A stretch of 42,141 nucleotides of DNA from Patescibacteria group bacterium. Its GTDB lineage: Bacteria > Patescibacteriota > Minisyncoccia > UBA6257 > UBA9933. The notes beneath the pieces are model-generated. The model did no database searches. It had not been told where the DNA came from and saw only the letters and a program-made list of their open reading frames with translations. A program made the position numbers and the translations under genes. Of the stretch, positions 11,604 through 31,343 are shown piece after piece (the stretch's first letter is position 1; every line of letters starts with the position of its first letter). The stretch spans positions 1-42,141 of the forward strand of contig JBBTWF010000005.1 in NCBI GenBank assembly GCA_038062875.1, in the 5' to 3' direction.

Positions 11604-11605
11604 AA

Positions 11606-12132: not shown

Positions 12133-12207
12133 TGGTGCGTGCGGAGGGGATCGAACCCCCGACCATTCGGATATAAGCCGAACGCTCTACCACTGAGCTA
12201 CGCACGC
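12133..12207 (-). tRNA. tRNA-Ile with anticodon TAT (UAU), CCA encoded
   Basis: Manual fold: acceptor GCGTGCG/CGCACGC, anticodon stem TTCGG/CCGAA, loop CTTATAT, T arm GGGGG-TTCGATC-CCCTC, then ACCA. Confidence 0.75.
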
Positions 12208-12220
12208 CCGCTATAATATA

Positions 12221-14056
12221 TTATATATTTACCATCTTAAACCCGAAGTTTTTAATCAGGTTGTCAAATTCGTCTTTTTCTATGGTTTCTTCTTTGATTA
12301 ATTTTTCAGCAAGGGCTTTTAACGCTTTTTTACGGCTAATGAGAATTTTTTTGGCGGCCTGAAACGCCTTATCAACTATTTCTTTAACTTCGTTGTCTAT
12401 TTCCGCGGCGATTTTCTCGGAATAATTTTTTCCAGTGGCAATTTCCCGTCCAAGAAAAATCATCTCCTGAGTGTCGCCGAAAGCGATTGGCCCAAGTTTT
12501 TCGCTCATCCCAAATTTAGTTACAAGTTTGCGCGTCAATTCAGATGCTTCTTTTATGTCGTTGGAAGCGCCAGTGCTTATATCTCCAAATGTTAATTGCT
12601 CTGAAACATAACCGCCGAACATTACCGCCAAGTCAGCCAAAAATTGCGACTTAGTCCGCAAATGCGTTTCTTCAATCGGAAGTTTTAAAGTATAACCGCC
12701 GGCTCTGCCGCGCGCCACAACGGAAATTTTCTGAACCGGGTCTGCGTTTTTCAAACTCGCAGCAACCAAAGCGTGTCCGGCTTCATGATAAGCGATAATT
12801 TCTTTTTCTTTTATTGATATGGCTCTGCTTCTGCGTTCAGGACCTAAAATAACTTTTTCAATGGAATCAAAAATATCCTGCTGGTTGATTAACAGCTGAT
12901 TTTTCCTCGCCGCGAAAATCGCCGCTTCATTCATTAAATTAGCCAAATCAGCTCCGGAAAATCCAGGTGTCCGCACAGCCACTTTGCGTAAATCAATTTC
13001 TTTGGATAAAATTTTTTCTTTGCTATGAATTTTTAGAATCGCTTCGCGGTCATTGATGTCGGGCAGGTCAAGAATAACGCGGCGGTCAAAACGACCTGGC
13101 CTTAACAATGCCTGGTCTAAAACATCGGGTCTATTAGTAGCCGCCATTACTATAACTTTTGTCTCCCGGTCAAATCCGTCCATTTCCACTAAAATTTGAT
13201 TTAAAGTTTGTTCTCTTTCGTCGTGGCCGCCGCCCAAGCCGGCTCCCCGCTCTCTGCCGATAGCGTCAATCTCATCAATAAAAATTATTGAAGGAGACGC
13301 TTTTTTGGCGGTCTGAAACAAATCTCTAACTCGGGAAGCTCCAACGCCCACAAACATTTCAACAAATTCAGAACCGGAAATATGGAAAAACGGCACACTG
13401 GCTTCGCCGGCAACCGCGCGAGCCAATAAAGTTTTTCCGGTCCCCGGAAGTCCTAATAATAAAACTCCTCTCGGAATTCTCGCCCCTAAATCAAGATATT
13501 TTTTTGGACGCTTCAAAAAATCAACAACTTCTAAAAGTTCTTCTTTAGTTTCTTTGAGACCTGCCACATCATTAAATGTAACCCTGTCTTTAAAAGCGGA
13601 AAAAAGCCGTATATTGGCTTTGCCGAAACTAAACGCCTGACCCATACCGCTCCGCGCCTGCTTAAACATAAGCCAGAAAAATACGCCGATAATTAAAAGC
13701 GGAAGAATTGTCGGCAAAAGAATGCTCATCCAAAAACGAAAACCGGATTCTTCTTTCACTTCTAGTGAAATTTTTTGAAGAGCAACAGGGTCAACGCCGT
13801 AATTTCTCAATGTCTCGGTTAGGCCGGCTTCTGTTTCTTTTTTAGAAACAGCTTTTCCGCCGTCTTTCAATTCAATTTCCAGATTATTCCCGTTAATTAA
13901 AATTTTGGTTATTTCTTGATTGTTAATTTTCGTTGCCAGCTGGTCAATACCCAAGACCTGCGGTTTTTGCTGTTCGCTGTAAAAAGCGGAAAAAATAAAC
14001 GCCACCATCAAAAGCGTCATAATCGCCCAGAAAATATTTTTGGATAAAGTTTTCAT
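12221..14056 (-). CDS. ftsH: ATP-dependent zinc metalloprotease FtsH
   Basis: It has two N-terminal TM helices, an AAA Walker A (GLPGTGKT) and the zinc motif HEAGHA. Confidence 0.97.
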
Positions 14057-14099
14057 ATTTTTTTACTAATTTACGAATTAAATACGAATATACGAATAT

Positions 14100-14127
14100 A
14101 TTATATAGTAATACATATTGGTGTCAA
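14100..14127 (-). promoter_or_regulatory. Sigma-70-like promoter for ftsH (TTGACA -N16- TATAAT on the minus strand)
   Basis: Minus-strand reading gives TTGACA (14127..14122), a 16-nt spacer and TATAAT (14105..14100), about 45 nt upstream of the ftsH ATG. Confidence 0.6.
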
Positions 14128-14149
14128 TTTTTTAAAATAAATAAAAATG

Positions 14150-14173
14150 GAGCATCTCCGAAGAGATGCTCCA
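14150..14173 (-). terminator. Intrinsic terminator (ggagcatctc-ttcg-gagatgctcc + T-rich tail) ending a minus-strand transcript
   Basis: A perfect 10-bp stem with a tetraloop is followed on the minus strand by atttttatttatttt. Confidence 0.75.
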
Positions 14174-14290
14174 TACAACAGGAAAGACGCTTTCGCAGGG
14201 AAGCGAAAAATCTTTCTTTTTACGAGGCGGGTTAGACATCGCAACTACGTCGCGCTCTCATGAGATAACTGCAGCGCACCCGACGTAGAT

Positions 14291-14590
14291 TTAAAATCTA
14301 TAAGTCATAGCAGGGACGAGAGGGATAGTCTGTATATCGACTGTTAATCCCGGTATGGATTCGCCTATACTAAAAGCCAAATCCGAAACAACTTCCGGAC
14401 AACACGGATCACCCGGCGTAATTGTGATTCCGCCTTCAGAATTTCTACGCATTCTGCTGCCGGTGTCTTTTAAAAGAGAACGGAGATCACGCATTGTGCC
14501 CTTTGGCGTTTCTGGAAAAATAATTTCGTAAAAAACTTTTACTCTTTTTTTTGTTTTAACTTTTTTTGCTTCATTTACGTAACCGGACAT
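14291..14590 (-). CDS. Hypothetical 99-aa protein (basic N-terminus, PCCPE motif); the coding status is uncertain
   Basis: This is an ORF with a weak SD (aaaggcgg). No family was recognised. A structured region of about 120 nt follows it before the terminator. Confidence 0.3.
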   Translation of the reverse strand: MSGYVNEAKKVKTKKRVKVFYEIIFPETPKGTMRDLRSLLKDTGSRMRRNSEGGITITPGDPCCPEVVSDLAFSIGESIPGLTVDIQTIPLVPAMTYRF

Positions 14591-14832
14591 ATCGTTCCGC
14601 CTTTCTTTTTTATTAAAATTAATAAAAAATTCAATTTTCTCATTTTTATTTTTACATCATTTTCCCCTCCTCTCTTTTATCAAAAAGTTAAAGAACGTTG
14701 GTTTTTCGCCGCGATTACTGACTATCCACCTCCTTTCTTATTTTCTAATGCAATACCGCGAAAGAAACACTATTAGTTAGTATAGAGCAAAAATAATAAA
14801 ACGTCAAGCTACGCGCGCCAAACGTTAAATAT

Positions 14833-15927
14833 TTATTTCTTCAATTTAAGAGTAATTCTTTTTTCTTCCATCTTTACCGCTTCAATGATAAATTTATAAC
14901 TCTTTCCGATTTCCAATTGTTTTTTCATTTCTTCGTCTCCGCCAAATTCGGAAATATGAATCAAGCCCTGAATTTCCGAATCAATATCAATAAGAGCGCC
15001 GAACGGGTTGAATTTATTAATCGCTCCGCTGATTTCTTGTCCGGCTTTGTATTTCTCTCCAACTTTCTCCCAAGGGTCGGGCTTAAGGGCTTTTAATGAA
15101 AGCGAAACTCGTCCTTCTTTGATTTCAGTAATTTTCGCTTTGATTCTCTCGCCAACTTCCACTATTTCTTTCGGATTTTCAATAAGCCGATGGTCAAGCT
15201 CCGAGATGTGAATCATTCCTTCAATCGTCTCATTATCGACAAATTTCATAAATACGCCGAAATCTGCCACCCCGGAAACGACACCCTCAACAACATCCCC
15301 CGCCTTATATTGATTAAGAAGTTCTTTAATATTTTCTTCCGCCGCTTCCCGTTCGGAAATAATCAATTTATTATTGCGAGGAATAAAATCAATGACTTTT
15401 ACCGCCAGTTCTTCTCCGACTAATTTCCGCAATTCTTCCAAAATTTTACTCCGCTCGCCTTCGTTAACTCTCGGATAATGTTCGCTAGCCAACTGAGAAA
15501 CAGGCAAAAACGCCTTGAAATCGTTGACCTTAGCAACCAAACCTCCGCTGTTGGCGCCGATGATTTTTACTACGGTTATCTCGCCGGAATCTTTTAAGTT
15601 TTTTATTTCTTGCCAATCCTTTTGTTGTCGGGCGCCGGCCAATGAAAGTTCGATGTAGCCGTCTTCATTTTCCGAACCAACGACTTTGGCGCTGATTAAA
15701 TCCCCCGACTTTAAATTTTTTACTATGTCTTTCGCGTTTAAAAATTCCGCTCCATAAACAATTCCGGTGCCGAATTTCCCTAAATCAAAATAACAGGCCT
15801 TTCTGCCTCTATCTAAAAATTTCGCCTCAATCAATTCTCCTTCTTTAAGAAAAGAAACGAGGTCCGGCTCAAGCTTCATCAACTGTCCAAGCGCGGAAAG
15901 AGGTTTTTTATTTATTATTGCTAACAT
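14833..15927 (-). CDS. rpsA: 30S ribosomal protein S1 (short form, about 4 S1 domains)
   Basis: Repeated S1-domain signatures occur (GxxVxGxV...G.GLLH-like, for example VVEGVVSGVADFGVFMKF and GLIHISE). The 364-aa length is typical of reduced genomes. Confidence 0.8.
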   Translation of the reverse strand: MLAIINKKPLSALGQLMKLEPDLVSFLKEGELIEAKFLDRGRKACYFDLGKFGTGIVYGAEFLNAKDIVKNLKSGDLISAKVVGSENEDGYIELSLAGARQQKDWQEIKNLKDSGEITVVKIIGANSGGLVAKVNDFKAFLPVSQLASEHYPRVNEGERSKILEELRKLVGEELAVKVIDFIPRNNKLIISEREAAEENIKELLNQYKAGDVVEGVVSGVADFGVFMKFVDNETIEGMIHISELDHRLIENPKEIVEVGERIKAKITEIKEGRVSLSLKALKPDPWEKVGEKYKAGQEISGAINKFNPFGALIDIDSEIQGLIHISEFGGDEEMKKQLEIGKSYKFIIEAVKMEEKRITLKLKK

Positions 15928-15953
15928 AGAAATAAATATTAACTTAACCTTGT

Positions 15954-15982
15954 TTGAAAATCAAGAGGAGATAAGTTATAAT
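15954..15982 (+). promoter_or_regulatory. Sigma-70-like promoter (TTGAAA -N17- TATAAT) for the 16005 gene
   Basis: Read directly. It lies 23 nt upstream of the ATG. Confidence 0.5.
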
Positions 15983-16004
15983 TAAATTAAATCTAAATTT
16001 CAAA

Positions 16005-16628
16005 ATGGTCATTACTTTCTACGGCGAAAATTGTTTTAAAATACAGAGCGGCGATACAACTATTCTAATCGACCCTTTTTCCGACCAAATAGGATTGACT
16101 TCTCCGCGCTTGAAGCCGGACATTCTCGTCAAAACACTAACTTCGTTTCCTGTAGTTTTATCTCCCGCCTATTCTGCTCGACAAATTATCGGGCCTGGAG
16201 AATATAATTTGAAAGATATTGATATTGTCGGTTTTGAATTACTTAAAGAATCTACGGAAAAATTTATAAAAACGATTTATTTAATGAAAATAGAAAACAT
16301 TAAAGTCGGGTTTTTAGGTCATCTAGCCGGAATACTCGAACCGGAAATTTTAGAACGTTTCGAAGAAATAGACATATTATTTATCCCGGCCGGCGGCTCG
16401 CCTTTTATCGAACAAAAATCAGCCGTAAAACTGATAAAACAGCTTGAACCGAAAATCGTCATCCCGTGTCTCTTTAAAATTCCAGGCCTTAAAAGACGCG
16501 CCGATGACGTAAAAGAATTTATTGAAGAATTCAATCACCAAAAACCCGTTCCTCAAGAAAAACTGACTATTAAAAAGAAGGACTTGGAGGGCATTAAAAA
16601 AACGGAAATTGTGGTACTAAAGATTTAA
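16005..16628 (+). CDS. Metallo-beta-lactamase-fold protein (COG2220-like) with an apparently degenerate metal motif
   Basis: ILIDPFSD is followed by beta-strand/Gly patterns typical of the MBL fold. The HxHxDH motif is not intact. Confidence 0.5.
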   Translation: MVITFYGENCFKIQSGDTTILIDPFSDQIGLTSPRLKPDILVKTLTSFPVVLSPAYSARQIIGPGEYNLKDIDIVGFELLKESTEKFIKTIYLMKIENIKVGFLGHLAGILEPEILERFEEIDILFIPAGGSPFIEQKSAVKLIKQLEPKIVIPCLFKIPGLKRRADDVKEFIEEFNHQKPVPQEKLTIKKKDLEGIKKTEIVVLKI

Positions 16629-16643
16629 AATTTAACTTAAATA

Positions 16644-16955
16644 ATGTGGCAATCTATTAAAAATTTTACAACCCGTCTCCAAAATTCCGATGACACGATT
16701 AAAAAGCGCTGGCTAATCGGAGTTAGCGCAATAACTATGATTTTTGTAATCGGCGGATGGATGATTTATTTAAATTACACTATTGAAAAAATGGGCGCTG
16801 TTGAAAATGAAATTGCTCACTCAACGAGTTTTTGGCAAGTTTTTAAAACCGGCCTACTAATCACCACTCAATCAATAAAAAACGGAACGCAAAATTTAAT
16901 TTCCGATATTGTGGATAAGATAAAAAGCAAGAATACGATTATAATGGAAAAATAA
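16644..16955 (+). CDS. Hypothetical small membrane protein (1 TM)
   Basis: This is an ORF with one hydrophobic helix and no recognised family. Confidence 0.35.
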   Translation: MWQSIKNFTTRLQNSDDTIKKRWLIGVSAITMIFVIGGWMIYLNYTIEKMGAVENEIAHSTSFWQVFKTGLLITTQSIKNGTQNLISDIVDKIKSKNTIIMEK

Positions 16956-17009
16956 AGGGCTTTCTATAAATTTTCGAGCCGATAGGCAATGAAAATTTAT
17001 CTAGAAAAC

Positions 17010-17125
17010 CTTTACCCCGCCCCATTTGTGGCAGAGATGTCAGATAGCGCCCAGTCAGAGCCGCAAGGCGGCTTCCGCCTCTGATTGAGCCAAAGGAAAT
17101 CTGTGCTACAAATGGGGCGGGGTGC
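17010..17125. repeat. Imperfect palindromic element (ccccgccccatttgtggcagagat ... atctgtgctacaaatggggcgggg) enclosing gccgcaaggcggc and a ccgcctctg motif
   Basis: The 15-bp terminal inverted repeat was read directly. The internal GC hairpin shares the cgcctctg motif of the repeat at 1..55. It lies just upstream of gyrA. Confidence 0.6.
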
Positions 17126-17152
17126 TCAAATTTATGGTAAAATTTTCTCGCT

Positions 17153-19660
17153 ATGCTCAAAAATTTAAATAAAATTGGCAAAATAGAAAAAAGGGAAATC
17201 ACTGCTGAGTTGCAGGAATCTTATCTTGATTACGCGATGTCTGTAATTATTTCCCGCGCCCTGCCGGATGTCCGAGACGGATTAAAACCGGTCCATCGCC
17301 GAATTTTGTGGGCCGCTTGGGAAGAAGGGCTGACGCATAACGCGAAATTCAGGAAGTCGGCGAACATAGTCGGTCAGGTTATGGCGCGTTATCATCCGCA
17401 CGGCGACTCCGCAATTTATGATTCTTTGGCAAGAATGGCCCAGGACTTTTCATTAAGATATCCGTTAATTCAAGGTCAAGGCAATTGGGGTTCCATTGAC
17501 GGAGACGCTCCCGCGGCAATGCGATATACGGAAGCGCGCCTTGCAAAAATATCCGACGAATTATTAACCGACGTTGAAAAAGAAACAGTTGATTGGAATC
17601 CGAATTATGACGGAAGCCATCGCGAACCGAAAGTTCTGCCGGCAAAACTCCCTAATCTTTTAATAAACGGCTCAATGGGCATCGCTGTAGGAATGGCAAC
17701 CAATATACCGCCAAATAATCTCTCCGAAGTTATTGACGCCACACTCCATTTAATAGACCACCCCAAATCTTTGACAGAAGATTTGATGACTTTTATCCAA
17801 GGCCCTGATTTTCCGACAGGCGGGATTATTTACGACAAAAAAGCGATTACCGAAGCGTACGCTTCTGGCAAAGGAGCGATTACCGCGAGAGCGAAAACGG
17901 AAATTATTGAAAAAAAGAGCGGTTATTTCAGCATTATTATCACGGAAATCCCCTATCAAGTTAATAAATCTGAATTAATAATAAAAATCGCCGAACTGGT
18001 GCAAGATAAAAAAATAGAAGGTATCCGCGATGTCCGCGACGAAAGCGGAAGGGAAGGATTAAGAATAGTCATTGAATTGAAAAACGACGCTTCTCCGCAA
18101 AAAATACTTAACCAACTTTTCAATCACACCGACCTTCAAAAAAATTTTAATATGAATATGCTCGCGCTGGGTCATGGAATCCAACCGCAAACAATGTCGG
18201 TAAAAGACGTTTTAGAAGCGTATGTTGAGCATCGCCAAGAAGTTGTTCGACGACGTACCGCGTTTGAACTCGCCAAAGCGAAAGAACGCGCCCATATTCT
18301 TGAAGGATTGGCAAAAGCGCTTTCCGCAATAGATAAAATCATCGCTGTCATAAAAAAATCAAAAGATACCGAGGAAGCGCATAAGAAATTAATGGAAAAT
18401 TTCAAACTCACAGGTATTCAGGCGACCGCGATTCTTGAAATGAAATTGAGGGCATTGGCGGCGCTGGAAAGACAAAAGATAGAAGACGAATTAAAAGAGA
18501 AAAAGAAATTAATAGCCGAATTGGAAGCGATTCTAAAAAGCGGACAAAAGATACTGAATATCATCAAAGAAGAATTAATAAAATTAAAAGAAAAACACGG
18601 CGATGAAAGAAAAACAAAAGTGGTTGCTGGCGGTCTCAAAGAATTTAAAGAAGAAGACCTTGTTCCGCAGGAAGAATCCATAATCACTCTTTCCAAGAGC
18701 GGTTATATTAAACGAGTAAATCCTACCATTTTTAAATCGCAGAAACGCGGAGGCACGGGATTAATCGGCTCTGAAGTCGGCGAAGAGGATTTTCTTTCTC
18801 ATTTTATTTCCGCCAACACACATAACAATATCTTATTTTTCACAGACCACGGAAAAGTTTTTCAAACCAAAGTTCATGAAATTCCCGTTGGCTCCAGAAT
18901 CGCCAAAGGTAAATTAATTCAAAATTTCTTAGACGTTCCTCCCGGCGAAACAATCAGCGCAATTGTTAATTATCCAATCGGCAATCAGCAATCAGCAATT
19001 AATAATCAATTCTTAGTAATGGCTACCAAAAAGGGCGTGATTAAAAAAACGCCTGTTGAAGAATTCCTAAATGTTAGAAGAAGCGGCATCATCGCTATCA
19101 ATCTTGAGAAAGCCCCGACGCCGAAGGGTCGGGGTTCCGACCGAAGCGTCGGAAACGACAGATTGAAATGGGTGAAACTTTCATCGGGAAAAGACGAGAT
19201 AATTTTGGCGACTAAATTAGGACAAGCGATAAGATTCAAAGAATCTCAATTACGGTCAATGGGCAGAACAGCTGCTGGCGTAAAAGCCATTAAATTGAAA
19301 AATAATGACTTTGTGGCAGGACTTGATATAATTAAAAAAGAGGAAAGGGAAAAGAGGAAAGAGGAAAGATTATTAGTTGTGACTGAAAACGGATTTGCCA
19401 AACAGACGGAGCTCAAAGAATACAAAATCCAGAGCCGCGGCGGTTCGGGAATCAAAACCTCTAAAATCAACGCCAAGACCGGATTGATTGTAGCTAGCCG
19501 AATTATTACCAATGAAGAAGAAATTTTGGCTCTTTCGGCAAAAGGGCAGATTATCAGAACTAAAATTTCCGACATCAGAACCGCTGGACGAGCCACTTCC
19601 GGAGTAAGAATTATGAAACTCAAACAAGGAGACAAAGTTATAGGAGTAGTGTGTTTATAA
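17153..19660 (+). CDS. gyrA: DNA gyrase subunit A
   Basis: The active-site region [10 protein letters not shown], the QRDR-like [10 protein letters not shown] motif and a C-terminal beta-pinwheel are present, along with in-frame low-complexity insertions. Confidence 0.96.
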
Positions 19661-19662: not shown

Positions 19663-20949
19663 ATGAATCTCACTCGCAACCAAATAATTATAATTTCCAT
19701 AACCATAGCGATAATTCTGCTCGCGGTATTGATGTTTATTTTTTTCCGGCAAAGCGGTGGAGGAGGCGGCTTTGGAGACGGAAACAAACAAATTGAATTA
19801 AATTTCTGGGGAATTGAGGACTCTAAAAATTTCCAGCCCGTTATTGACGCTTACGCGCAATCTCGACCGGAAATCAGAATCAATTATCGCCAAATTGACG
19901 CCAATTCCTACGAAGACAATTTAATCAATGCCTTAGCAGCGGGTCGAGGACCTGATATTTTGATGCTTCATAATACTTGGTTGCCAAAACATAGCGATAA
20001 AATTATAGCCGCGACTGAGTCGCAAATTCCTTTTTCAAATTTCCTCCAATTCTTCCCGACTGTGGCTGAACAGGATTTAACTTCCAACGGTATTATTTAC
20101 GGCCTGCCTCTTTATATCGACACTTTGGCGCTTCTGTATAATAAAGACGCTTTTGACGCCAAGGCCGTCGCCTTGCCGCCGACTCAATGGTCAGGATTCC
20201 AAAATCTAATACCTCGACTGCGAATAAAAAATCAACTTAATCAAATTACTCACGCGGCCGCGGCAATCGGCGGTTCGGAAAAAAGCGAAAATCAAGCCGC
20301 TGATTTATTTTCTCTTTTAATGCTCCAGTTCGGCAGCCCAATGATTAACCAACAATACTCCCAGGCGGATTTCGGCGCTCAAGGAATTGAAGCGTTGAAT
20401 TTTTATCTTCAGTTCTCCAATCCTTCCGGACCTTTTTACACTTGGAACGATAATCTTCCATATTCCATTGACGCTTTCAGCCAAGGCGCGGCTGATATGA
20501 TTTTTAATTACGCCGAGGCAATTCCTCAAATCAAAGCCAAAAATCCGTTCCTTAATATAGGCGTAGCGCCAATGCTTCAATTTAATTCTTCCCAGCCAAT
20601 AAACTACGCTAATTATTGGGGATTAGCGGTTTCCAACAAAAGCCAAAACTCGGCTTGGGCGTGGGATTTTGTATTATTCGCCACAACTAATCCGGAAAAT
20701 TCTTTGAAATATTTAGAAAATTCCCTTCATCCACCGGCGCTTCGAACGCTCATCAACCAGTATCTCACATATCCTGATTTAGGCATCTTCGCCAAGCAAG
20801 CACTTACCGCCCGCTCTTGGTATCAACCGGACAGTAAAACAATTAAACAAATTTTTTCCAATATGATAGAATCTGTATTGAACGGACGATTAAGTTCGGA
20901 CAAAGCGCTGGAGCAGGCGGAGAATGAGATAACGTCCTTAATGAGATAA
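19663..20949 (+). CDS. Extracellular solute-binding protein (ABC transporter SBP, family-1/MalE-like) with an N-terminal TM anchor and Gly-rich linker
   Basis: An N-terminal TM helix and GGGGG linker are followed by NFWG, PVIDAY and GRGPDI, which are typical of sugar-type SBPs. No permease or ATPase genes are adjacent. Confidence 0.65.
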   Translation: MNLTRNQIIIISITIAIILLAVLMFIFFRQSGGGGGFGDGNKQIELNFWGIEDSKNFQPVIDAYAQSRPEIRINYRQIDANSYEDNLINALAAGRGPDILMLHNTWLPKHSDKIIAATESQIPFSNFLQFFPTVAEQDLTSNGIIYGLPLYIDTLALLYNKDAFDAKAVALPPTQWSGFQNLIPRLRIKNQLNQITHAAAAIGGSEKSENQAADLFSLLMLQFGSPMINQQYSQADFGAQGIEALNFYLQFSNPSGPFYTWNDNLPYSIDAFSQGAADMIFNYAEAIPQIKAKNPFLNIGVAPMLQFNSSQPINYANYWGLAVSNKSQNSAWAWDFVLFATTNPENSLKYLENSLHPPALRTLINQYLTYPDLGIFAKQALTARSWYQPDSKTIKQIFSNMIESVLNGRLSSDKALEQAENEITSLMR

Positions 20950-20950: not shown

Positions 20951-21376
20951 ATGACAAGTTATAATTTAAAATTCAAAATTTTTACATTTTACATTGTCAT
21001 TTTGATTTTTACATTTTTAATTTTTAATTTTGCGCCTATGGCGCAAGCCGCCGGTCTTGTTCCATGCGGCGGCGTCGGCCAAAATCCCTGCACCTGGTGT
21101 GATTTTGGCGTAATGGCCAATAATATTTTTAATTTCACCGTTTATAGTATTATTATTCCAATTGCCGTGGCTGTTGTAATCTGGGGCGGGTTTGTGATAA
21201 TGACTGCCGGCGGTTCGCCGGAAAAAGTAAAAAGCGGAAGAGACATTATTAAATCAGCGATAATCGGAATTATTATTACTTTAGCCGCCTGGCTGATTAT
21301 AGATACAATCATCAAAATTGCGGCTACCGGCTGGTCCAGCCTGAAAATCGGCCCCTGGAATCAAATTGGTTGTTGA
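20951..21376 (+). CDS. Small secreted two-helix protein, paralog 1 of 4 (signal peptide AQA|AG, Cys-rich segment, TM, loop MTAGGSPEKVKSGR, TM); VirB2/TrbC-pilin-like topology
   Basis: It shares the motif (M/L)TAGGxPEKVK with the next three genes, and the hydrophobic-loop-hydrophobic architecture follows a signal peptide. Confidence 0.55.
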   Translation: MTSYNLKFKIFTFYIVILIFTFLIFNFAPMAQAAGLVPCGGVGQNPCTWCDFGVMANNIFNFTVYSIIIPIAVAVVIWGGFVIMTAGGSPEKVKSGRDIIKSAIIGIIITLAAWLIIDTIIKIAATGWSSLKIGPWNQIGC

Positions 21377-21404
21377 TAAAATATTTTTTTGATATAATAA
21401 AAAA

Positions 21405-21800
21405 ATGAAATCCCGACAAAAAAAATCAACCAATAAAATTTTAACTGGCGTATTTTGTGTTAGTTTAGTGATGGTTTTAAGTTTATCTTTCAGTAATGAA
21501 GTTTTAGCAGATACTGGCGGCGGTACTGGCAGTGTTCAACTTCAAAACCCCCTTTGCGGTGGCTCTCCGAACTGCACTTTCGCCAATATTCTTAAAACTA
21601 TTTCCAATTATTTGGTGACGCTTAGCGGAATTATAGTGGTGATCATGATTCTAATCGGCGCTTTCCAAATTATGACCGCCGGCGGGGACCCGGAAAAAGT
21701 CAAAACTGGCCGGCACACGATTTTATGGTCCGCCGTAGGATTTGCCATCGTCTTGTCCGCTTACGGAATTGTTGCTATAGTGGAGGAACTACTAAAATAA
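21405..21800 (+). CDS. Small secreted two-helix protein, paralog 2 (MTAGGDPEKVKTGR loop)
   Basis: It has a signal peptide, a Cys pair (PLCGGSPNC) and the same core as paralog 1. Confidence 0.55.
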   Translation: MKSRQKKSTNKILTGVFCVSLVMVLSLSFSNEVLADTGGGTGSVQLQNPLCGGSPNCTFANILKTISNYLVTLSGIIVVIMILIGAFQIMTAGGDPEKVKTGRHTILWSAVGFAIVLSAYGIVAIVEELLK

Positions 21801-21820
21801 TTTTCAATTTTCAAAGCATT

Positions 21821-22147
21821 ATGAATAAATTAACAAAAACCGCATCATTTTTAATTCTATCTGGTTTAATAACCTTGCTTATTGTGCCGATAATTTCTTA
21901 CGCGGCGGTTGAATCAATGAACGATGTTATTAGGGTGCTTAATAATATTGTTAGTTGGACTTATATTATTTTCTTTATTGTGGCCACTTTTTTCATATTG
22001 ATAGCGGCTTTTAATTTTTTAACAGCAAGAGAAAATCCTGAAAAAATTAAAACCGCTAAAGACCAATTACTTTACGCGGCTATCGCTATCGCTATCGCAT
22101 TAATGTCATCGGGAATTAAAGCGATAGTATTGGACATTTTAAGTTAA
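21821..22147 (+). CDS. Small secreted two-helix protein, paralog 3 (LTARENPEKIKTAKDQ loop)
   Basis: The ATG at 21821 (MNKLTKT...) is the preferred start. The longer track ORF overlaps gene 2. The family core is conserved and there are no Cys residues. Confidence 0.55.
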   Translation: MNKLTKTASFLILSGLITLLIVPIISYAAVESMNDVIRVLNNIVSWTYIIFFIVATFFILIAAFNFLTARENPEKIKTAKDQLLYAAIAIAIALMSSGIKAIVLDILS

Positions 22148-22212
22148 GATATTAAAATAATTAATATGATCATTTCCAAAGGTCGAAAGGATTAAATCAA
22201 GTGTTATATTTT

Positions 22213-22572
22213 ATGCAAAAATTAAAAACAAAAATTTCCGTTGGAGTTATGGCCGGTTTATCAACTTTATTAGGAAGCGCTTTGCTTGTTGTTGCGGGTC
22301 CGCCTCCAATCCCCAGTTCTCCGGTCACTTCAGTTACCGGCATTGTTGATGTAATAGACAATGTAGTCAGATGGGTTTATATTATTTTCTTTATTTTGGC
22401 TGTTCTTTTCATTATTTTCGCGGCATTCACTTATTTGACTGCCGGAGGCGATGAAGAAAAAGTCAAAAAAGCCAAAGACCAGATAATTTACGCGGCAGTC
22501 GCGATTGTTGTCGCTCTATTGGCGGTTGGATTTCAAACAATCATCGGAAACTTCTTAACAAGCGGTGGCTGA
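22213..22572 (+). CDS. Small secreted two-helix protein, paralog 4 (LTAGGDEEKVKKAKDQ loop)
   Basis: The ATG at 22213 is preferred over the GTG at 22201. It is the closest paralog of gene 3 (VRWVYIIFFILA...). Confidence 0.55.
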   Translation: MQKLKTKISVGVMAGLSTLLGSALLVVAGPPPIPSSPVTSVTGIVDVIDNVVRWVYIIFFILAVLFIIFAAFTYLTAGGDEEKVKKAKDQIIYAAVAIVVALLAVGFQTIIGNFLTSGG

Positions 22573-22641
22573 TAATTAATCATTAAATTCGCAGCCATTC
22601 GGATTAATTCGGATGGTGTGTGGCAAATTTTTAGAAAAAAA

Positions 22642-22696
22642 GACCGAGCACATAAAGTTTGTAAACTTATGTGCTCGGTTTGTGTTTTTATTTTTC
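22642..22696. terminator. Bidirectional intrinsic terminator (gaccgagcacataa ... ttatgtgctcggt + T tract)
   Basis: A 14-bp stem lies between the convergent genes at 22572 and 22696. Confidence 0.75.
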
Positions 22697-23211
22697 TACG
22701 CCTTTATTTTTGGGCGAAGAAAAATTATTACTTTCACCTCCTTATCTTCCATAGATTTTATTCTGAAATTGCTTAGAGTAATTTCATCTCCTAACCAGTT
22801 CGGCTTTCCAGGCTCGTCTTCTATTTCCTGACCATCCCAGAATTTATACCTTACTTTTCCTTCTGGTCTAATTCTAAACCAATGATACGGCGGTATAGAA
22901 AAATTTTCCGACCATTGATTTGGCTGGACAATTATTTCTTGCCACCGTATTTCCGCCGCCAGCGATGGCTGGGAAGGCGATATACTACTGAAATATTTGT
23001 ACCCGCCATATCCAGCGATAGCCAGGATAAGAATAGATATAACCCAGCCAAAACTAATTTTTTTTCTTTCTTTCTTTACTTCTTTCACTTCCTGAGGTTG
23101 AGATTGTACACCCGGTACTCCAGGTACCCCCGTTTTATCCCTTGCGCGGGTTATTCTAAAAAACAGAAATGTCGCCAAAGCGAGAAAAAAGATAATCAAT
23201 TCTATCCTCAT
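22696..23211 (-). CDS. Two-TM membrane protein with a beta-rich C-terminal domain, translationally coupled to the SPFH gene (possible NfeD-like partner)
   Basis: It overlaps the SPFH gene by 4 nt and has TM helices at the N-terminus and after a VPGVPGV linker. The NfeD assignment is speculative. Confidence 0.4.
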   Translation of the reverse strand: MRIELIIFFLALATFLFFRITRARDKTGVPGVPGVQSQPQEVKEVKKERKKISFGWVISILILAIAGYGGYKYFSSISPSQPSLAAEIRWQEIIVQPNQWSENFSIPPYHWFRIRPEGKVRYKFWDGQEIEDEPGKPNWLGDEITLSNFRIKSMEDKEVKVIIFLRPKIKA

Positions 23212-24452
23212 TTTTTCTCCTCCTTCTTAAAAACTTCTCCAACAGCGGAAGCAACGGCCACTAAGTCAGAAAAACCCGCAGAACCGGCAACAATTGTTTT
23301 TTGCCCTGGGTTCTCCGTGATCGCCCTGGCTGTTTCAGCGCCCAATACCGCCGCGCCGGAAACTCCAAGTTCATTCGCCATTCTCTTGAACCCATCAGTT
23401 CTACCATCAAGAATAGCTTTTTCTTTGGCCCCCTTTCCTTCTCCTTCAAGCGTATCTTTTCGTTTCTGAGCTTCAGCAACGGTAATAGTTGCCTGCTTTT
23501 TCGCTCGCTCTTTAGCCGGTTCTTGAAGAGCCTCATTAAGCTTGTGGCTATAGATAAAGGGTCGTAAGAGCACTGTTACAATATCTATGCCACGATCGCT
23601 CTTTTTATCGCTTTCTATTCTTTCAATTCTTTCGACTATCTCGTCTTTAATGAGCTCACTAAACGTTCCGAGATTGTGTTGCGCTACCGCAGGAGTGATT
23701 TTCGAAAACTCCCGGTTAAGCATCGCTACCGCGATGTCTTGTATCTGATCAATTGCTTTCTCTATCGAGCCGAATATTCTCAAAAACTCACTGAGACTTC
23801 TGATTCTTAACCGAACTACAAGAGGAGTTTCCGCAGTCATACGGATATTTAACGGATCATCCTTAATTTCTTCGTTTGCTATAAGCTCATTCAGTGTGTC
23901 GTAGAGTTTTTTAGTCTTTTCAGCTTTAGGATCGTTGATTTTGGCATCAAGATCTTTTGTGCTTAGTTTAATCCCCGGCCACCCAAATTGAACTCTGATT
24001 GGAGGTTTGTATCCGAGCGCCAGAAGATCTTTTGGCACAACTTCTTCTTCTCCTAGCTTAGCCCTGAATATTAGTTCGGGTCGGGCTGGAAGTTCAATCT
24101 CAATAATATTTCTTGTATTCTTTACCAACTGGCATACAAGGAACGGAACGAACTTCAATCCTGAACCCACGTCGCGTATAGGCTTACCAAAGAAAAGTAT
24201 TGCCCCAAGTTCTGTTGGCCCAACCGTGCGAAAACTAATCAACACATAAAATAATTGAGCCAAAAACGTTGCTAACCCCCAATTCCATTTCAGCTGTATG
24301 CCGAAAAGATTTATTGTTATTGAGTAGTTTGATAGCCAAGAATACTCAATAACAAAAAGAACGATAGAAATTGAAACCACCCACTTCCAAAAATTTCGGG
24401 GTGTTTTTTTCTCTCTTTTTTGCTCTTTTTCTTCCGCTTCTGCTGTACTCAT
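23208..24452 (-). CDS. SPFH/band-7 (stomatin/flotillin/HflKC-like) domain membrane protein
   Basis: An N-terminal TM helix is followed by an SPFH-like core and a coiled-coil Ala/Glu/Lys-rich region (ITVAEAQKRKDTLEGEGKGAKEKAILDGRTDGFKRMANELG). Confidence 0.7.
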   Translation of the reverse strand: MSTAEAEEKEQKREKKTPRNFWKWVVSISIVLFVIEYSWLSNYSITINLFGIQLKWNWGLATFLAQLFYVLISFRTVGPTELGAILFFGKPIRDVGSGLKFVPFLVCQLVKNTRNIIEIELPARPELIFRAKLGEEEVVPKDLLALGYKPPIRVQFGWPGIKLSTKDLDAKINDPKAEKTKKLYDTLNELIANEEIKDDPLNIRMTAETPLVVRLRIRSLSEFLRIFGSIEKAIDQIQDIAVAMLNREFSKITPAVAQHNLGTFSELIKDEIVERIERIESDKKSDRGIDIVTVLLRPFIYSHKLNEALQEPAKERAKKQATITVAEAQKRKDTLEGEGKGAKEKAILDGRTDGFKRMANELGVSGAAVLGAETARAITENPGQKTIVAGSAGFSDLVAVASAVGEVFKKEEKK

Positions 24453-24552
24453 TTTTCCTCCTTCCGGCCATTCGACCGATTCTGATTGTTTTTATTTTCT
24501 AATCCCTATAAAATTATCAAAGGACTGCTTCATAGAACGCCAAAGGCATCTA

Positions 24553-24581
24553 TTGAAGTTATCGTAAATATAGCATAAAAT
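24553..24581 (+). promoter_or_regulatory. Promoter for tRNA-Leu (TTGAAG -N17- TAAAAT)
   Basis: Read directly, about 20 nt upstream of the tRNA 5' end. Confidence 0.45.
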
Positions 24582-24601
24582 AGTAAAGATGTCAATGTGT
24601 T

Positions 24602-24684
24602 GCTCCCGTGGCGGAACTGGCATACGCGCATGGTTTAGAACCATGTCCCGTAAGGGTTAGAGGTTCAAATCCTCTCGGGAGCAC
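24602..24684 (+). tRNA. tRNA-Leu (anticodon TAG), with a long variable arm
   Basis: Manual fold: acceptor GCTCCCG/CGGGAGC, anticodon stem CATGG/CCATG, loop TTTAGAA, variable arm CCCGTAAGGG, T arm AGAGG-TTCAAAT-CCTCT. Confidence 0.85.
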
Positions 24685-24690
24685 AAAAAA

Positions 24691-25626
24691 TCATTTTCTT
24701 CTTCTGGCGTGAAAGGCGTGGTGGACTTCGCGAAGCCCCTTATTGGTAAGATGGGTATAAATTTGAGTGGTGGAAACATTGGCATGACCCAAAAGTTCTT
24801 GGACTGAACGGAGATCGGCTCCGCCGACCAAAAGATCTGTTGCGAATTGATGACGGAGCTGGTGCGGAGTAATTTTATCGGTAATGCCAGCTTTGCGAGC
24901 GTAAAAATTAACCAGTCGCTGGATTGTCCGTGGAATAATCCGACCGATTATTTTTGGCGAGCTTTTTCCGCCTGAGGCGGATCCGCCTTTGGCGGAAGAC
25001 AAACTTACAAAAAGCGCTTCGTCAGTGTCGGTTCTTTTTTCTAAATAATTTTTAATCGCTTTTTTGGCTCGTTCGGAAAGAAAAACCAGCCGCAATTTGT
25101 CTCCTTTCCCACGCACCGAAATTTCACCGCGTTCTAAATCAAGATAACGATTAAGCCCACAAAGTTCGGAAATTCGCAAACCAGTTGAAAAAAATGTTTC
25201 TAAAATCGCTTTGTCGCGCAAAGCGCGCAAATTATTACCGGCAGGCGCCTCAAATAATCTTTCTAAGTCCTTGTATTCAATAATCTCAATCTGCCGCGTA
25301 GATGTTTTCGGAAGTTCAATTTTATCCGGAGATAAAACATTATAATCCTGCTTAATTAAATATTTTAGAAAATTCCGCAAAGCAATCACGTAATACGACT
25401 GGGTAGTTTTTTTTAGAATTCCTCCGTCCGAGATTTTGGTTCGCGCTAAACGCAACCGAAAATCCCTAATTTTATCCATAGTAATGTCTTTTTCGGTTCT
25501 AATTTCGGCAAAATCAATAAAAACCCTAAGATACCGCTCGTAATTCTCGCTTGTTTTCGGGGAACGATTTTTTTCAATCTCTAAATAATCAAGATAATTT
25601 TTGAGAAGATTTTTAATGTCTGGCAT
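24691..25626 (-). CDS. xerC: Tyrosine recombinase, XerC/XerD family, with an in-frame Gly/Ser-rich repeat insertion
   Basis: The catalytic motifs RGKGDKLR, HQLRHQFAT and LGHANVSTTQIYTHL are present. The SSAKGGSASGGKSS segment is encoded by repeat B (24963..24993). Confidence 0.85.
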   Translation of the reverse strand: MPDIKNLLKNYLDYLEIEKNRSPKTSENYERYLRVFIDFAEIRTEKDITMDKIRDFRLRLARTKISDGGILKKTTQSYYVIALRNFLKYLIKQDYNVLSPDKIELPKTSTRQIEIIEYKDLERLFEAPAGNNLRALRDKAILETFFSTGLRISELCGLNRYLDLERGEISVRGKGDKLRLVFLSERAKKAIKNYLEKRTDTDEALFVSLSSAKGGSASGGKSSPKIIGRIIPRTIQRLVNFYARKAGITDKITPHQLRHQFATDLLVGGADLRSVQELLGHANVSTTQIYTHLTNKGLREVHHAFHARRRK

Positions 25627-28668: not shown

Positions 28669-29295
28669 GTGCTTGAACAATTAAATCAAATTTATCTACT
28701 TTTTAGCGGAAGCGTAATCGGCCTCTTAATTGAGTACAAGCTTTGGGCAATTTTTGGAGGAGCGATTTTTTTTGCCGAAAGCTTCATAATAACCGCCTCC
28801 GCCTTATCAGTAAAAGGATGGTGGTCTCCTATCGATGTATTTTGGTTAACACTGGCCGGAACGCTTATTTCTGATTTCTTTTGGTATCTGCTTGGCCAAT
28901 TTCTTTTAAAAATCAACTATCGATTAGGAGAAAAAGACCAGAGCAGAATGAAAAAGTTGGCTTTAGTTATTAACGCGGTGGCTGGGAAAAAGCTTTTTCC
29001 CGTGCTTTTATTTATGAAGTTTTCATATGGAACGCGATTTTTAATACTGCTTTATTTATCATTGCGTCGTGTGAAATTGAAAGATTTTCTGATTTTTGAT
29101 ACTATAAGCACTGTCATCTGGCTCTTAGTGCTAATCCCATTAGGATGGCTGGCAGGTAAGGGTATAAATTATTTTGGACTTTTCCAGAAAATTGAGTATC
29201 TTTTTTCGGCAATACTCGTTCTTATTTTGATATATAAAGGCGCCACATTTCATATACGGAAAAAAATTACAAAAAAACCTGCGCAAAATGAGTAA
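28669..29295 (+). CDS. Polytopic membrane protein, possibly DedA/VTT-like (GTG start); first gene of the candidate biosynthetic operon
   Basis: It has 4-5 TM helices and a G-rich loop pattern with weak DedA resemblance. It overlaps the next gene by 8 nt. Confidence 0.4.
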   Translation: MLEQLNQIYLLFSGSVIGLLIEYKLWAIFGGAIFFAESFIITASALSVKGWWSPIDVFWLTLAGTLISDFFWYLLGQFLLKINYRLGEKDQSRMKKLALVINAVAGKKLFPVLLFMKFSYGTRFLILLYLSLRRVKLKDFLIFDTISTVIWLLVLIPLGWLAGKGINYFGLFQKIEYLFSAILVLILIYKGATFHIRKKITKKPAQNE

Positions 29296-29959
29296 TATTA
29301 TTTTTTCGTTAGTAAAATCAGAAAAAGAATTAAACAGAGCTCTTAATCTGGCTTACTTAGAATACCGAAGAAAAAAATTCATTAAAGCGTCTAACGAAAA
29401 AATTTACAAAACCTCATTTAATACTCCATCAAAGTCAGTCACTTTCGTAGCTAAAAATAATAATAAAGTTATCGCCACCGCTTCTCTTATTATAGACTCG
29501 GAATCCGGTCTACCGATGGATTCGCTCTATAAAAAAGAATTGGATGATTTGCGGAAAAAAGGGAAAAAAATCTCCGAGATTTCGCAACTCGCCTTTGATA
29601 ATGAAACAACTAAATCTTCTTTTGAGGAAATTAAAACAATTAACTTGCTATTAACGCTTTTTAAACTAATGTTCCATTACTGCCTATATCGCGGCATTAA
29701 TAATATCTGTATTTGCGTCAATCCTCTCCACAAAATTTTCTACGAACATTTATTTTTTAAAGATCTGGGGAAAGGATTGAAAAAATATCCAGCAATGAAT
29801 GGAGCTCCGGCGATTGCCAAGTATCTCACTATAAATAAACAATTAAAAAAGATTGCCGCCGAAAAAAAACCAGCTGTTTATAAAATTTTTTATAAAAATA
29901 AACCGAATTATAAAATGTTCGGCGGAAAATCAAGGCTTACTTTTAAAATAAAAATATGA
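29288..29959 (+). CDS. GNAT-fold N-acyl amino acid synthase-like acyltransferase (FeeM/NasY-type, PEP-CTERM/exosortase-associated acyltransferase family)
   Basis: TASLIIDSESGLPMDSLYKKELDDLRKKGKKISEISQLAF matches the family core (RLIL..GLP.E..F...L...G..AEISRLAV). Confidence 0.55.
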   Translation: MSNIIFSLVKSEKELNRALNLAYLEYRRKKFIKASNEKIYKTSFNTPSKSVTFVAKNNNKVIATASLIIDSESGLPMDSLYKKELDDLRKKGKKISEISQLAFDNETTKSSFEEIKTINLLLTLFKLMFHYCLYRGINNICICVNPLHKIFYEHLFFKDLGKGLKKYPAMNGAPAIAKYLTINKQLKKIAAEKKPAVYKIFYKNKPNYKMFGGKSRLTFKIKI

Positions 29960-29972
29960 TATAATATTAAAT

Positions 29973-30440: not shown

Positions 30441-30461
30441 AACATAAAATATCGTGTTTTT

Positions 30462-31337: not shown

Positions 31338-31343
31338 ACAAAA

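What the first reader, a model, noticed from the sequence alone, without database searches (positions are those of the whole stretch)
20951..22572. Tandem array of four diverged paralogous small secreted two-helix proteins with VirB2/TrbC-pilin-like architecture
Four consecutive plus-strand genes of about 110-140 aa each share a strongly hydrophobic helix, a conserved loop ((M/L)TAGG(D/S)PEKVK(T/S)GR, or LTA(G/R)(G/E)(D/N)(E/P)EK(V/I)K(K/T)AKDQ in the second pair), and then a second hydrophobic helix. All have N-terminal signal peptides, and the first two have a Cys pair after the signal peptide. Hydrophobic-loop-hydrophobic after a long leader is the topology of conjugative/T4SS pilins (VirB2/TrbC); it is not a type IV prepilin. 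Genes 1-2 and genes 3-4 form two subfamilies, which suggests serial duplication. No T4SS ATPase or channel genes are in the window. Their function is open; candidates are pilus subunits, surface antigens undergoing diversification, or bacteriocin-like peptides.
Basis: partly seen in the sequence, partly recalled or inferred. Interest (0 to 1): 0.75.

Follow-up and report, generated by a model that had tools for sequence, protein, structure and literature searches.

The report
VirB2-like pilin gene array, Patescibacteria
Four neighbouring small genes in an ultra-small (CPR/Patescibacteria) bacterium encode diverged copies of a conjugation-type (VirB2-like) pilin, a kind of gene array already described in this phylum; here it sits in one operon with gyrA and a sugar-binding-type surface protein rather than next to the secretion machine.

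Summary
Four plus-strand genes (20951-21376, 21405-21800, 21821-22147, 22213-22572) each encode a signal peptide, then a hydrophobic helix, a TAGG-x-PEKVK loop and a second hydrophobic helix. All four exceed the gathering score of Pfam PF18895 (T4SS_pilin).

The window comes from a Patescibacteria (class Paceibacteria-like) chromosome. Tandem arrays of diverged VirB2-like pilins in this phylum are already published: 441 arrays in 383 assemblies, and a six-gene array that is essential in Ca. Southlakia epibionticum. This is therefore a new member of a known kind.

Points that may go beyond the literature I could search:
- The array lies more than 10 kb from any VirB4.
- It is tightly packed behind gyrA and a membrane-anchored SBP_bac_1 protein.
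- The SBP-array pair recurs in about 45 species, including some where gyrA is not adjacent.
- Gene order is conserved: a Cys-rich g1-type first, then a g2-type, then one to four g3/g4-type copies.
- Two Cys residues of the g1-type co-vary, which suggests a disulfide tying the N-terminal segment to the C-terminus.

Whether any of these proteins forms a pilus is unproven, here or in any Patescibacterium.

The parts
17153..19660 (+). gyrA, first gene of the tightly packed gyrA-SBP-pilin gene string (context)
   Evidence: DNA_topoisoIV plus DNA_gyraseA_C domains. Its stop lies 2 nt before the SBP ATG at 19663. gyrA-SBP-array order is conserved in relatives, often with 4-nt overlaps.
19663..20949 (+). 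Membrane-anchored orphan solute-binding protein (SBP_bac_1/SBP_bac_8), conserved immediately upstream of the array
   Evidence: PF01547 4e-25 and PF13416 4e-22. Only weak NCBIfam similarity to GanS, MalE and UgpB. It has an N-terminal TM helix followed by a Gly-rich linker. Its stop TAA is at 20947-20949 and the g1 ATG at 20951. An SBP lies directly upstream of 40 (43 counting three ORF-overlap cases) of 44 arrays of 3 or more copies, and 3 of 3 SBP-selected loci carry arrays.
20951..21376 (+). g1: Cys-rich VirB2-like pilin (141-aa precursor; predicted cleavage after AQA33), first-position paralogue class
   Evidence: PF18895 41.3 bits, E 1.6e-10. Four Cys (39, 47, 50, 141) are conserved in g1-type orthologues, and C50 and C141 co-vary. 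It is always first after the SBP gene.
21405..21800 (+). g2: VirB2-like pilin (131-aa precursor; predicted cleavage after VLA35), second paralogue class
   Evidence: PF18895 40.3 bits; TrbC PF04956 21.2 bits (below the 27.9 cut-off); NF045849 37.4 bits (below the 40 cut-off). The exact protein is on NCBI GCA_964356485.1.
21821..22147 (+). g3: VirB2-like pilin (108 aa from ATG 21821), g3/g4 class
   Evidence: PF18895 36.5 bits. It is called as 108 aa on the public contig and is 43% identical to g4.
22213..22572 (+). g4: VirB2-like pilin (119 aa from ATG 22213), the most conserved copy and candidate major subunit
   Evidence: PF18895 51.8 bits, E 8.6e-14. It is 81-87% identical to orthologues where gyrA is 74-78%. 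The AF2 hairpin has pLDDT 85-89.
22632..22697 (.). Strong hairpin with an A-run before and a T-run after: likely bidirectional terminator closing the pilin operon and the convergent SPFH operon
   Evidence: RNA fold of 22570-22705: -45.8 kcal/mol, z = -7.0 against shuffles, core stem 22641-22681. Inverted repeat I2 at 22632-22655 / 22667-22690.

Best explanation
The four genes encode diverged paralogues of the VirB2-like pilin family PF18895 on the chromosome of a Paceibacteria-type Patescibacterium.

Shown here: family membership; the architecture of signal peptide plus two-helix hairpin; tight packing in one gene string with gyrA and an orphan membrane-anchored SBP; conserved order of paralogue classes across many species; and location more than 10 kb from any VirB4.

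Inferred mechanism:
1. Each precursor is inserted by Sec and cleaved by signal peptidase I. This leaves an 80-108-aa hairpin with both termini outside the cell and the K/R-containing loop inside.
2. In g1, extracellular disulfides form (C39-C47 and C50-C141). The second would clamp the N-terminal segment to the C-terminus.
3. A VirB4/VirB3(PrgI)/VirB6-type monoderm T4SS encoded elsewhere in the genome extracts the membrane pool and assembles a short pilus or conduit.
4. The well-conserved g4-type is the bulk subunit. The faster-evolving g1- and g2-types are specialised (tip, base or adhesin-bearing) subunits used to contact the host cell in an epibiotic lifestyle.

The role of the co-encoded SBP is unknown.
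For: Family and architecture:
- All four proteins match PF18895 above the gathering score. Precomputed PF18895 annotations exist on the identical public contig.
- Topology and hairpin are supported.

Organism: the source is a Patescibacteria MAG, and the closest named homologues are Paceibacterota and Wolfebacteria.

Link to T4SS:
- The same local pilin HMM finds a 4-gene array directly next to an 887-aa unknown, PrgI (PF12666) and a VirB4 (NF045971, 378 bits against a 325-bit cut-off) in L075.
- Six PF18895 pilins beside VirB6/VirB4 are all essential in Ca. S. epibionticum.
- 441 such arrays are reported in PMC12102498.
- Six genomes carrying related array loci are VirB4-positive in that paper's Table S1: L022, L045, L052 and L057 have the gyrA-SBP-array, L016 has an array without an SBP hit, and L035 has giant fusions. 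VirB4 occurs in 2,417 of 3,035 assemblies.

Differentiated paralogues:
- Positional orthology of g1-type, g2-type and g4-type copies.
- g4 is 81-87% identical to orthologues, against 47-64% for g1-g3, where gyrA is 74-78%.
- g1-type orthologues often carry large Cys-rich extensions.
- C50 and C141 co-occur: 24 with both, 6 with neither, 0 and 1 discordant.
Against: - No T4SS gene lies in the 42-kb window or in the next 10 kb of the source contig. I could not search the rest of the source genome.
- No pilus has been seen in any Patescibacterium; the 2025 review treats it as a possibility only.
- The TrbC/VirB2 profile itself is not reached.
- Fold searches cannot tell this hairpin from any other helical hairpin.
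- The near-invariable coupling to an SBP gene, and the existence of single polypeptides with 6-7 fused pilin units, fit a membrane-resident assembly at least as well as a filament.
- Signal-peptide and disulfide assignments are sequence heuristics. The Cys covariation test is not corrected for phylogeny.
Confidence: 0.6

Rival explanations
1. The hairpin proteins do not form a pilus. Together with the co-encoded anchored SBP they build a T4SS-independent, membrane-embedded hetero-oligomer (a ring, pore or scaffold) for capturing or importing host-derived compounds. In this reading the PF18895 fold is reused as a membrane module.
For: - An SBP gene lies immediately upstream in 40-43 of 44 arrays of 3 or more copies. 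This includes ABY1-like loci where the upstream neighbour is an NTP_transferase rather than gyrA. All 3 SBP-selected loci carry arrays.
- Start and stop codons abut or overlap.
- Arrays lie more than 10 kb from virB4.
- A fixed order of paralogue classes suggests fixed stoichiometry.
- Fused proteins with one signal peptide and 6-7 hairpin units exist.
- The structure-based annotation of one Se ML1 pilin (the entry preceding SEML1_0019) listed an ATP-synthase c-subunit-like domain as the nearest ECOD fold.
Against: - The loci were found through the window's own loop motif or through SBP orthologues, so the linkage may largely reflect one inherited locus.
- No permease or ATPase gene accompanies the SBP.
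- The same family is embedded in T4SS clusters elsewhere and is essential there.
- A Wolfebacteria T4SS has its own adjacent PF18895 pilin, which shows that the family works with the T4SS.
Confidence: 0.2
2. The array is mainly a diversification device: interchangeable surface-exposed variants that alter host range or evade host defences, as proposed for multi-copy VirB2 in Bartonella and Anaplasma.
For: - Copy number varies from 4 to 6 among close relatives and from 2 to 9 more widely.
- g1-g3 diverge faster than flanking housekeeping genes.
- The same idea is raised in PMC12102498.
Against: - Paralogue classes and their order are conserved across species whose gyrA is only about 55-65% identical.
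- The only DNA-level repeat is a 54-nt stretch at 72% identity over the loop motif, so there is no sign of recent duplication or gene conversion.
- There are no silent cassettes, and no invertible or recombination sites were found.
- All copies sit in one operon.
Confidence: 0.12
3. They are secreted bacteriocin-like or holin-like membrane-active peptides.
For: They are small, hydrophobic and carry signal peptides. There are weak sub-threshold Pfam hits to holin families (E 0.095-0.46).
Against: - No immunity gene, ABC-exporter/C39 gene or lysis gene is adjacent.
- The family-specific PF18895 match is far stronger.
- Conserved chromosomal synteny with housekeeping genes in dozens of species is not typical of bacteriocin loci.
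Confidence: 0.03
4. They are type IV (T4P or competence) pilins.
For: Patescibacteria are rich in T4P, and the proteins are small and hydrophobic.
Against: - There is no class III leader or G|F-x-x-x-E motif.
- They have two hydrophobic helices rather than one followed by a globular domain.
- There is no Pfam match to N_methyl or pilin families.
Confidence: 0.01

Closest known systems
VirB2-like pilin arrays of Patescibacteria (Quinonero-Coronel et al. 2025, PMC12102498; the essential array SEML1_0014-0019 of Ca. Southlakia epibionticum, Wang et al. 2023, PMC10633639)
   Same: Same Pfam family (PF18895), same phylum, and tandem genes of about 110-140 aa. Within-array identity is low: 27-43% here, against a reported mean of 25% and maximum of 54%. 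Each copy has a signal peptide and a two-helix hairpin.
   Different: - The Se ML1 array lies inside the T4SS cluster beside VirB6/VirB4. This one lies more than 10 kb from any VirB4, inside a gyrA-SBP-pilin gene string.
- The published arrays were reported as most abundant in Microgenomatia and Saccharimonadia. This one is in a Paceibacteria-type lineage.
- SBP coupling, conserved paralogue order and the g1 Cys pattern are not mentioned in the papers I could search.
TrbC/VirB2 conjugative pilins of diderm T4SS (Pfam PF04956; Agrobacterium VirB2, RP4 TrbC, F TraA)
   Same: Long Sec-type leader, two hydrophobic helices and a short charged loop. Three of the four proteins give weak profile similarity (13-21 bits), and two orthologues carry recorded PF04956 hits. 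From established knowledge, both termini of these pilins face outward and some are cyclised head to tail. The predicted C50-C141 disulfide of g1 would tie the ends in an analogous way (inference).
   Different: - The match is below the PF04956 gathering score.
- The host is a monoderm.
- The genes are not encoded with VirB3-B11.
- There are multiple differentiated paralogues rather than one major pilin.
- No filament has been demonstrated.
Mbov_0395 / MMCAP2_0565 pilin-like conjugal transfer protein of mycoplasma ICEs (NCBIfam NF045849)
   Same: This is the best curated match after PF18895: g2 scores 37.4 bits (E 1.4e-9) over model positions 11-77 of 80. The patescibacterial VirB4 of L075 also matches the neighbouring mycoplasma ICE ATPase family Mbov_0397 at 280 bits. 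A pilin-like protein paired with VirB4 therefore exists in another wall-less or monoderm lineage of the MPF-FATA type.
   Different: All four proteins fall below the 40-bit cut-off. They are chromosomal housekeeping-linked genes, not ICE-borne, and they form an array rather than a single gene.

Membership tests
Pfam PF18895 T4SS_pilin | Profile match at or above the curated gathering score (26.6 bits) | tested here: met
   41.3, 40.3, 36.5 and 51.8 bits for g1-g4. The precomputed annotation on the identical contig agrees.
Pfam PF18895 T4SS_pilin | Small protein with an N-terminal signal peptide followed by two hydrophobic helices joined by a short loop | tested here: met
   Hydropathy segments; AF2 helices 42-76 and 81-116; AxA sites and basic n-regions (heuristic).
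TrbC/VirB2 pilin (Pfam PF04956) | Profile match at or above the gathering score (27.9 bits) | tested here: not met
   13.5, 21.2, no hit, and 17.3 bits. Orthologues in L003 and L090 do carry recorded PF04956 hits.
TrbC/VirB2 pilin (Pfam PF04956) | Encoded within a T4SS gene cluster (VirB3/VirB4/VirB6 nearby) | tested here: not met
   No T4SS gene in the window or in the next 10 kb. tblastn with the L075 VirB4 and PrgI finds nothing in the other fetched loci.
TrbC/VirB2 pilin (Pfam PF04956) | Polymerises into an extracellular helical filament (with phospholipid) | not testable with these tools
   Needs cryo-EM, cryo-ET or biochemistry. Fold searches were uninformative.
Patescibacterial VirB2-like pilin array (PMC12102498) | Two or more PF18895/PF04956 genes in tandem (or separated by one gene) in a Patescibacteria genome | tested here: met
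   Four adjacent PF18895 genes; the source is a Patescibacteria MAG; definition taken.
Patescibacterial VirB2-like pilin array (PMC12102498) | High divergence among copies (reported mean 25%, maximum 54% identity) | tested here: met
   27-43% pairwise identity. No DNA-level repeats beyond the loop motif.
Patescibacterial VirB2-like pilin array (PMC12102498) | Genome also encodes the patescibacterial VirB4-type T4SS | not testable with these tools
   The rest of the source assembly could not be read. Six relatives with related array loci are listed as 'Presence of VirB4: Yes', and the overall prior is 2,417 of 3,035 assemblies.
Mbov_0395 family pilin-like conjugal transfer protein (NF045849) | Score at or above the 40-bit cut-off | tested here: not met
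   21.8, 37.4, 30.8 and 33.3 bits.
Type IV pilin / pseudopilin (T4P, competence) | Class III leader with G|[FM]xxxE and a single N-terminal hydrophobic helix | tested here: not met
   No such motif in any of the four proteins, and each mature protein has two hydrophobic helices.
Lipoprotein or sortase substrate | Lipobox [LVI][ASTVI][GAS]C, or an LPXTG sorting signal | tested here: not met
   Neither pattern is present.

The most novel reading that the evidence does not exclude
The anchored SBP_bac_1 protein and an ordered set of differentiated VirB2-like hairpin proteins form a distinct, widely conserved surface module of Paceibacteria and ABY1-type Patescibacteria. The set comprises a disulfide-clamped g1-type, a g2-type and multi-copy g4-type subunits. 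The module is co-transcribed with gyrA. It works either with the T4SS in trans or independently of it, as a host-contact or nutrient-capture organelle and not as a conjugative pilus.
Probability: 0.2. Interest if true: 0.7.

Novelty: new member of a known kind. Interest (0 to 1): 0.35.

Why it matters
Patescibacteria make up a large share of bacterial diversity and live attached to other cells. Their T4SS and its pilin array are essential in the one species tested, yet nobody knows what the system moves or whether it builds a pilus.

This locus adds nothing categorically new, but it gives three testable handles:
- In a large Paceibacteria-type group the pilin genes are detached from the T4SS and hard-wired to gyrA and an orphan solute-binding protein.
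- The copies fall into conserved classes, which points to a heteromeric structure and away from interchangeable variants.
- One class carries a predicted N-to-C disulfide clamp and, in relatives, large Cys-rich extensions, making it a candidate host-binding subunit.

Tried and rejected
- Exact look-up of g4 from ATG 22213 returned nothing. g2 located the source contig instead.
- A PDB sequence-profile search found no relative (best E 0.13, a designed protein).
- Walking the source contig was limited to 10 kb beyond the window and showed only housekeeping genes.
- The species of the window is not among the genome contigs representatives (best match 60% to g1), so same-genome VirB4 could not be tested.
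- Literature searches for an SBP-VirB2 link in Patescibacteria and for Mbov_0395 found nothing relevant.
- Gracilibacteria loci (L038, L039, L053, L055, L078, L083) fragment under genetic code 11 and were not interpreted.
- Rejected readings: type IV pilins, lipoproteins and sortase substrates; bacteriocin locus, because there are no partner genes; recent duplication or gene-conversion cassette system.
Full report
**What is there**

The region holds four consecutive plus-strand ORFs. From the DNA and the gene calls on an identical public contig, the most likely genes are:
- g1, 20951-21376 (141 aa)
- g2, 21405-21800 (131 aa)
- g3, 21821-22147 (108 aa)
- g4, 22213-22572 (119 aa)

The longer ORFs listed for g3 and g4 start upstream of their true ATG. 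The public gene call for g1 starts at an internal Met and would delete its signal peptide; I prefer the 141-aa form.

Each protein has a basic N-terminus, a hydrophobic h-region and an AxA-type site, followed by two long hydrophobic helices separated by TAGG(D/S)PEKVK-type loops. An AlphaFold2 model of g4, built on 40 sequences, gives helices 42-76 and 81-116 at pLDDT 85-89. Pairwise identities are 27-43%. At the DNA level only a 54-nt stretch over the loop motif is still recognisable, at 72% identity between g1 and g2, so the duplications are old.

A very stable hairpin flanked by an A-run and a T-run (22632-22697; z = -7) closes the operon against the convergent SPFH operon.

**What family**

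All four proteins exceed the gathering score of Pfam PF18895 'T4SS_pilin' (41.3, 40.3, 36.5 and 51.8 bits against 26.6). Three have sub-threshold TrbC/VirB2 (PF04956) matches. All four have sub-threshold matches to the mycoplasma-ICE pilin-like family NF045849.

None carries a type IV prepilin motif, a lipobox or an LPXTG signal.

The family is very large. A profile of g4 and its homologues finds 60,661 cluster representatives at E <= 1e-3 and 8,890 at E <= 1e-10. Sequence and fold comparison with solved structures gave nothing usable, because any helical hairpin matches.

**Where it comes from**

g2 is encoded identically on NCBI GCA_964356485.1 contig CAYHHQ010000003.1. g4 equals a protein of a 'Patescibacteria group bacterium' MAG, and the nearest named homologues are Paceibacterota and Wolfebacteria. 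PMC12102498 Table S1 places Wolfebacteria and Harrisonbacteria in GTDB class Paceibacteria.

The window is ordinary chromosome: PGM, FtsK, RecA, SHMT, FolD, Obg, FtsH, S1, GyrA, PNPase, NusA, H+-PPase, ClpP and others. No VirB4, VirD4, VirB6 or pilus-machinery gene is in the window or in the next 10 kb of the source contig.

**What is already known**

- Quinonero-Coronel et al. 2025 searched 3,035 Patescibacteria genomes with PF04956 and PF18895. They found VirB2-like pilins in 1,948 VirB4-positive assemblies, near virB4 in 1,135 of them. [quoted passage not shown]
- Wang et al. 2023 showed that the T4SS cluster of Ca. Southlakia epibionticum, including a series of predicted pilins, is essential for epibiotic growth. 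Their tables list SEML1_0014-0019 as PF18895 proteins scored essential.
- A 2025 review calls a pilus in these monoderms an 'intriguing possibility', not a fact.

The finding is therefore a further member of a described kind.

**Link to the T4SS**

- A local HMM built from g1-g4 finds a four-gene array in L075 directly upstream of an 887-aa unknown, a PrgI/VirB3 protein and a VirB4. The VirB4 scores 378 bits on NF045971 against a 325-bit cut-off. The same family is thus physically part of a T4SS cluster in some Patescibacteria.
- In two Wolfebacteria in Table S3 of the 2025 paper, a single PF18895 gene lies three genes from VirB4 and TrsD.
- tblastn with the L075 VirB4 and PrgI finds nothing in any other fetched locus.
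- Six of those genomes (loci L016, L022, L035, L045, L052, L057) are listed as VirB4-positive.

Taken together, arrays of the window's type lie away from virB4 in genomes that do have a T4SS. I could not read the rest of the source genome, so whether it has a T4SS rests on this comparative evidence and on the 80% prior.

**Things that may be new**

(1) SBP coupling.
- In relatives found through g4, through the loop motif in GTDB genomes and through the SBP itself, the order is Lactamase_B_3, small ORF, GyrA, SBP_bac_1, then pilin x 2-9. Coding regions frequently abut or overlap by 4 nt.
- An SBP homologue lies directly upstream of 40 (43 counting three ORF-overlap cases) of 44 arrays with three or more copies.
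- This holds in ABY1-like loci such as L074 (Kuenenbacteria) and L056, where the gene before the SBP is an NTP_transferase, not gyrA.
- The SBP is anchored by an N-terminal helix, has no permease next to it, and resembles sugar-type SBPs only weakly.
- Caveat: all these loci were retrieved with probes derived from this locus, so much of the linkage may be shared ancestry.

(2) Ordered paralogue classes.
- The first gene after the SBP is always g1-type (Cys-rich), usually followed by a g2-type and then one to four g3/g4-type copies. In one subgroup the g2-type is last.
- Against L003, L011 and L009, g4 is 81, 87 and 68% identical. g1-g3 are 43-64%, and GyrA is 74-78%.
- This pattern suggests a conserved bulk subunit plus faster-evolving specialised subunits. 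It does not look like a set of interchangeable variants.

(3) A Cys clamp in g1.
- In 31 g1-type orthologues, Cys50 (the second Cys of CxxC) and the C-terminal Cys141 are both present in 24, both absent in 6, and discordant in one. The discordant sequence has two Cys in its tail.
- Fisher p is about 1e-5, not corrected for phylogeny, with at least two independent losses.
- With both termini outside the cell, this predicts a disulfide tying the N-terminal segment to the C-terminus. That would be functionally reminiscent of head-to-tail cyclised TrbC/VirB2 (established knowledge). This is inference only.

(4) Extensions in relatives. g1-type genes are sometimes extended to 300-968 aa, with many Cys on either side of the hairpin.

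**Most likely mechanism and rivals**

I favour Sec export, signal-peptidase cleavage and an N-out/C-out membrane pool, followed by assembly by a T4SS encoded elsewhere into a short heteromeric pilus or conduit used in host contact (confidence about 0.6 overall). Family membership is near certain; the filament is roughly even odds.

The main rival (about 0.2) is a membrane-resident SBP-hairpin complex independent of the T4SS. It is favoured by the SBP coupling, by the distance from virB4, and by natural fusions with one signal peptide and 6-7 hairpin units.

Pure antigenic or host-range variation is weakened by the conserved order and by the lack of DNA repeats. Bacteriocin or holin roles and type IV pilins are rejected.

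**Verdict**

In kind the finding is already known, with modest new comparative detail. Interest is 0.35.

Noticed in passing
window 19663-20949 and loci L003-L092: An orphan, N-terminally anchored SBP_bac_1 gene lies immediately upstream of the pilin array in about 45 species and abuts or overlaps both gyrA and the first pilin gene. I found no paper that mentions this.
   Followed up: yes
L035, L043, L060, L061, L066, L068, L071, L077, L079, L080, L085 (for example L061:4173-7580 and 7781-18223): In Magasanikbacteria, Falkowbacteria and similar ABY1 genomes, the pilin-like hairpin (residues about 5-140) forms the N-terminus of paired giant proteins. These are 650-1,145 aa and 1,971-3,480 aa long, and the larger ones carry 76-145 Cys. 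The hairpin looks like a membrane or pilus anchor for huge surface proteins.
   Followed up: partly
proteins P0121 (606 aa) and P0122 (552 aa): Single polypeptides with one signal peptide followed by 6-7 tandem pilin hairpin units and no internal leaders. These are natural 'poly-pilin' fusions. They are hard to reconcile with free subunit polymerisation unless they are processed.
   Followed up: partly
L075:9386-20047: A compact patescibacterial T4SS cluster: pilin x4, an 887-aa protein with no family hit (possibly VirB6-like), PrgI, a VirB4 split over two ORFs (15311-16015 and 15984-17804), and a Peptidase_C39_2 protein. It lies next to PolA-FtsK-RodZ-like-RecA.
   Followed up: partly
window 12133-12207 (- strand): ARAGORN calls a tRNA-Ile with anticodon UAU, which I recall to be an unusual decoding solution in bacteria. 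It overlaps the 5' end of the longest ORF of the deaminase gene (11606-12205), so that ORF start is probably too far upstream.
   Followed up: no
window 46-944 (- strand): Phosphoglucomutase is split into two overlapping ORFs: domain I at 453-944, and domains II onward from 456 downward. The same split (163 aa plus 316 aa, 4-nt overlap) is called on the public contig. It is either a genuine split gene or a frameshift.
   Followed up: no
window 29288-32423: A gene cluster of FeeM-like N-acyl amino acid synthase, a 155-aa unknown, a ThiF/E1-like adenylyltransferase and an Acg/Rv1355c-like FMN oxidoreductase. Together these match the fused 'PRK14852/PRK14851/Rv1355c' hypothetical proteins. The cluster lies before a convergent MacB-type ABC pair (32428-34471) and may be a small-molecule or peptide-modification pathway.
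   Followed up: no
L006:2890-6695 and L091:2224-6004: The gyrA gene of a relative (ERZ1286166) is interrupted by an intein with a LAGLIDADG homing endonuclease.
   Followed up: no
window 22696-25626 (- strand): Downstream of the array and convergent to it lie a 171-aa TM protein with no family hit, a long SPFH/Band_7 protein, tRNA-Leu and a XerC/D-type tyrosine recombinase. The Band_7-recombinase arrangement recurs in relatives, so the recombinase is probably the chromosomal Xer and not a sign of a mobile element.
   Followed up: partly
window 1060-1731 (- strand): An AbiEii-type nucleotidyltransferase toxin gene (type IV TA / abortive infection) with small upstream ORFs.
   Followed up: no
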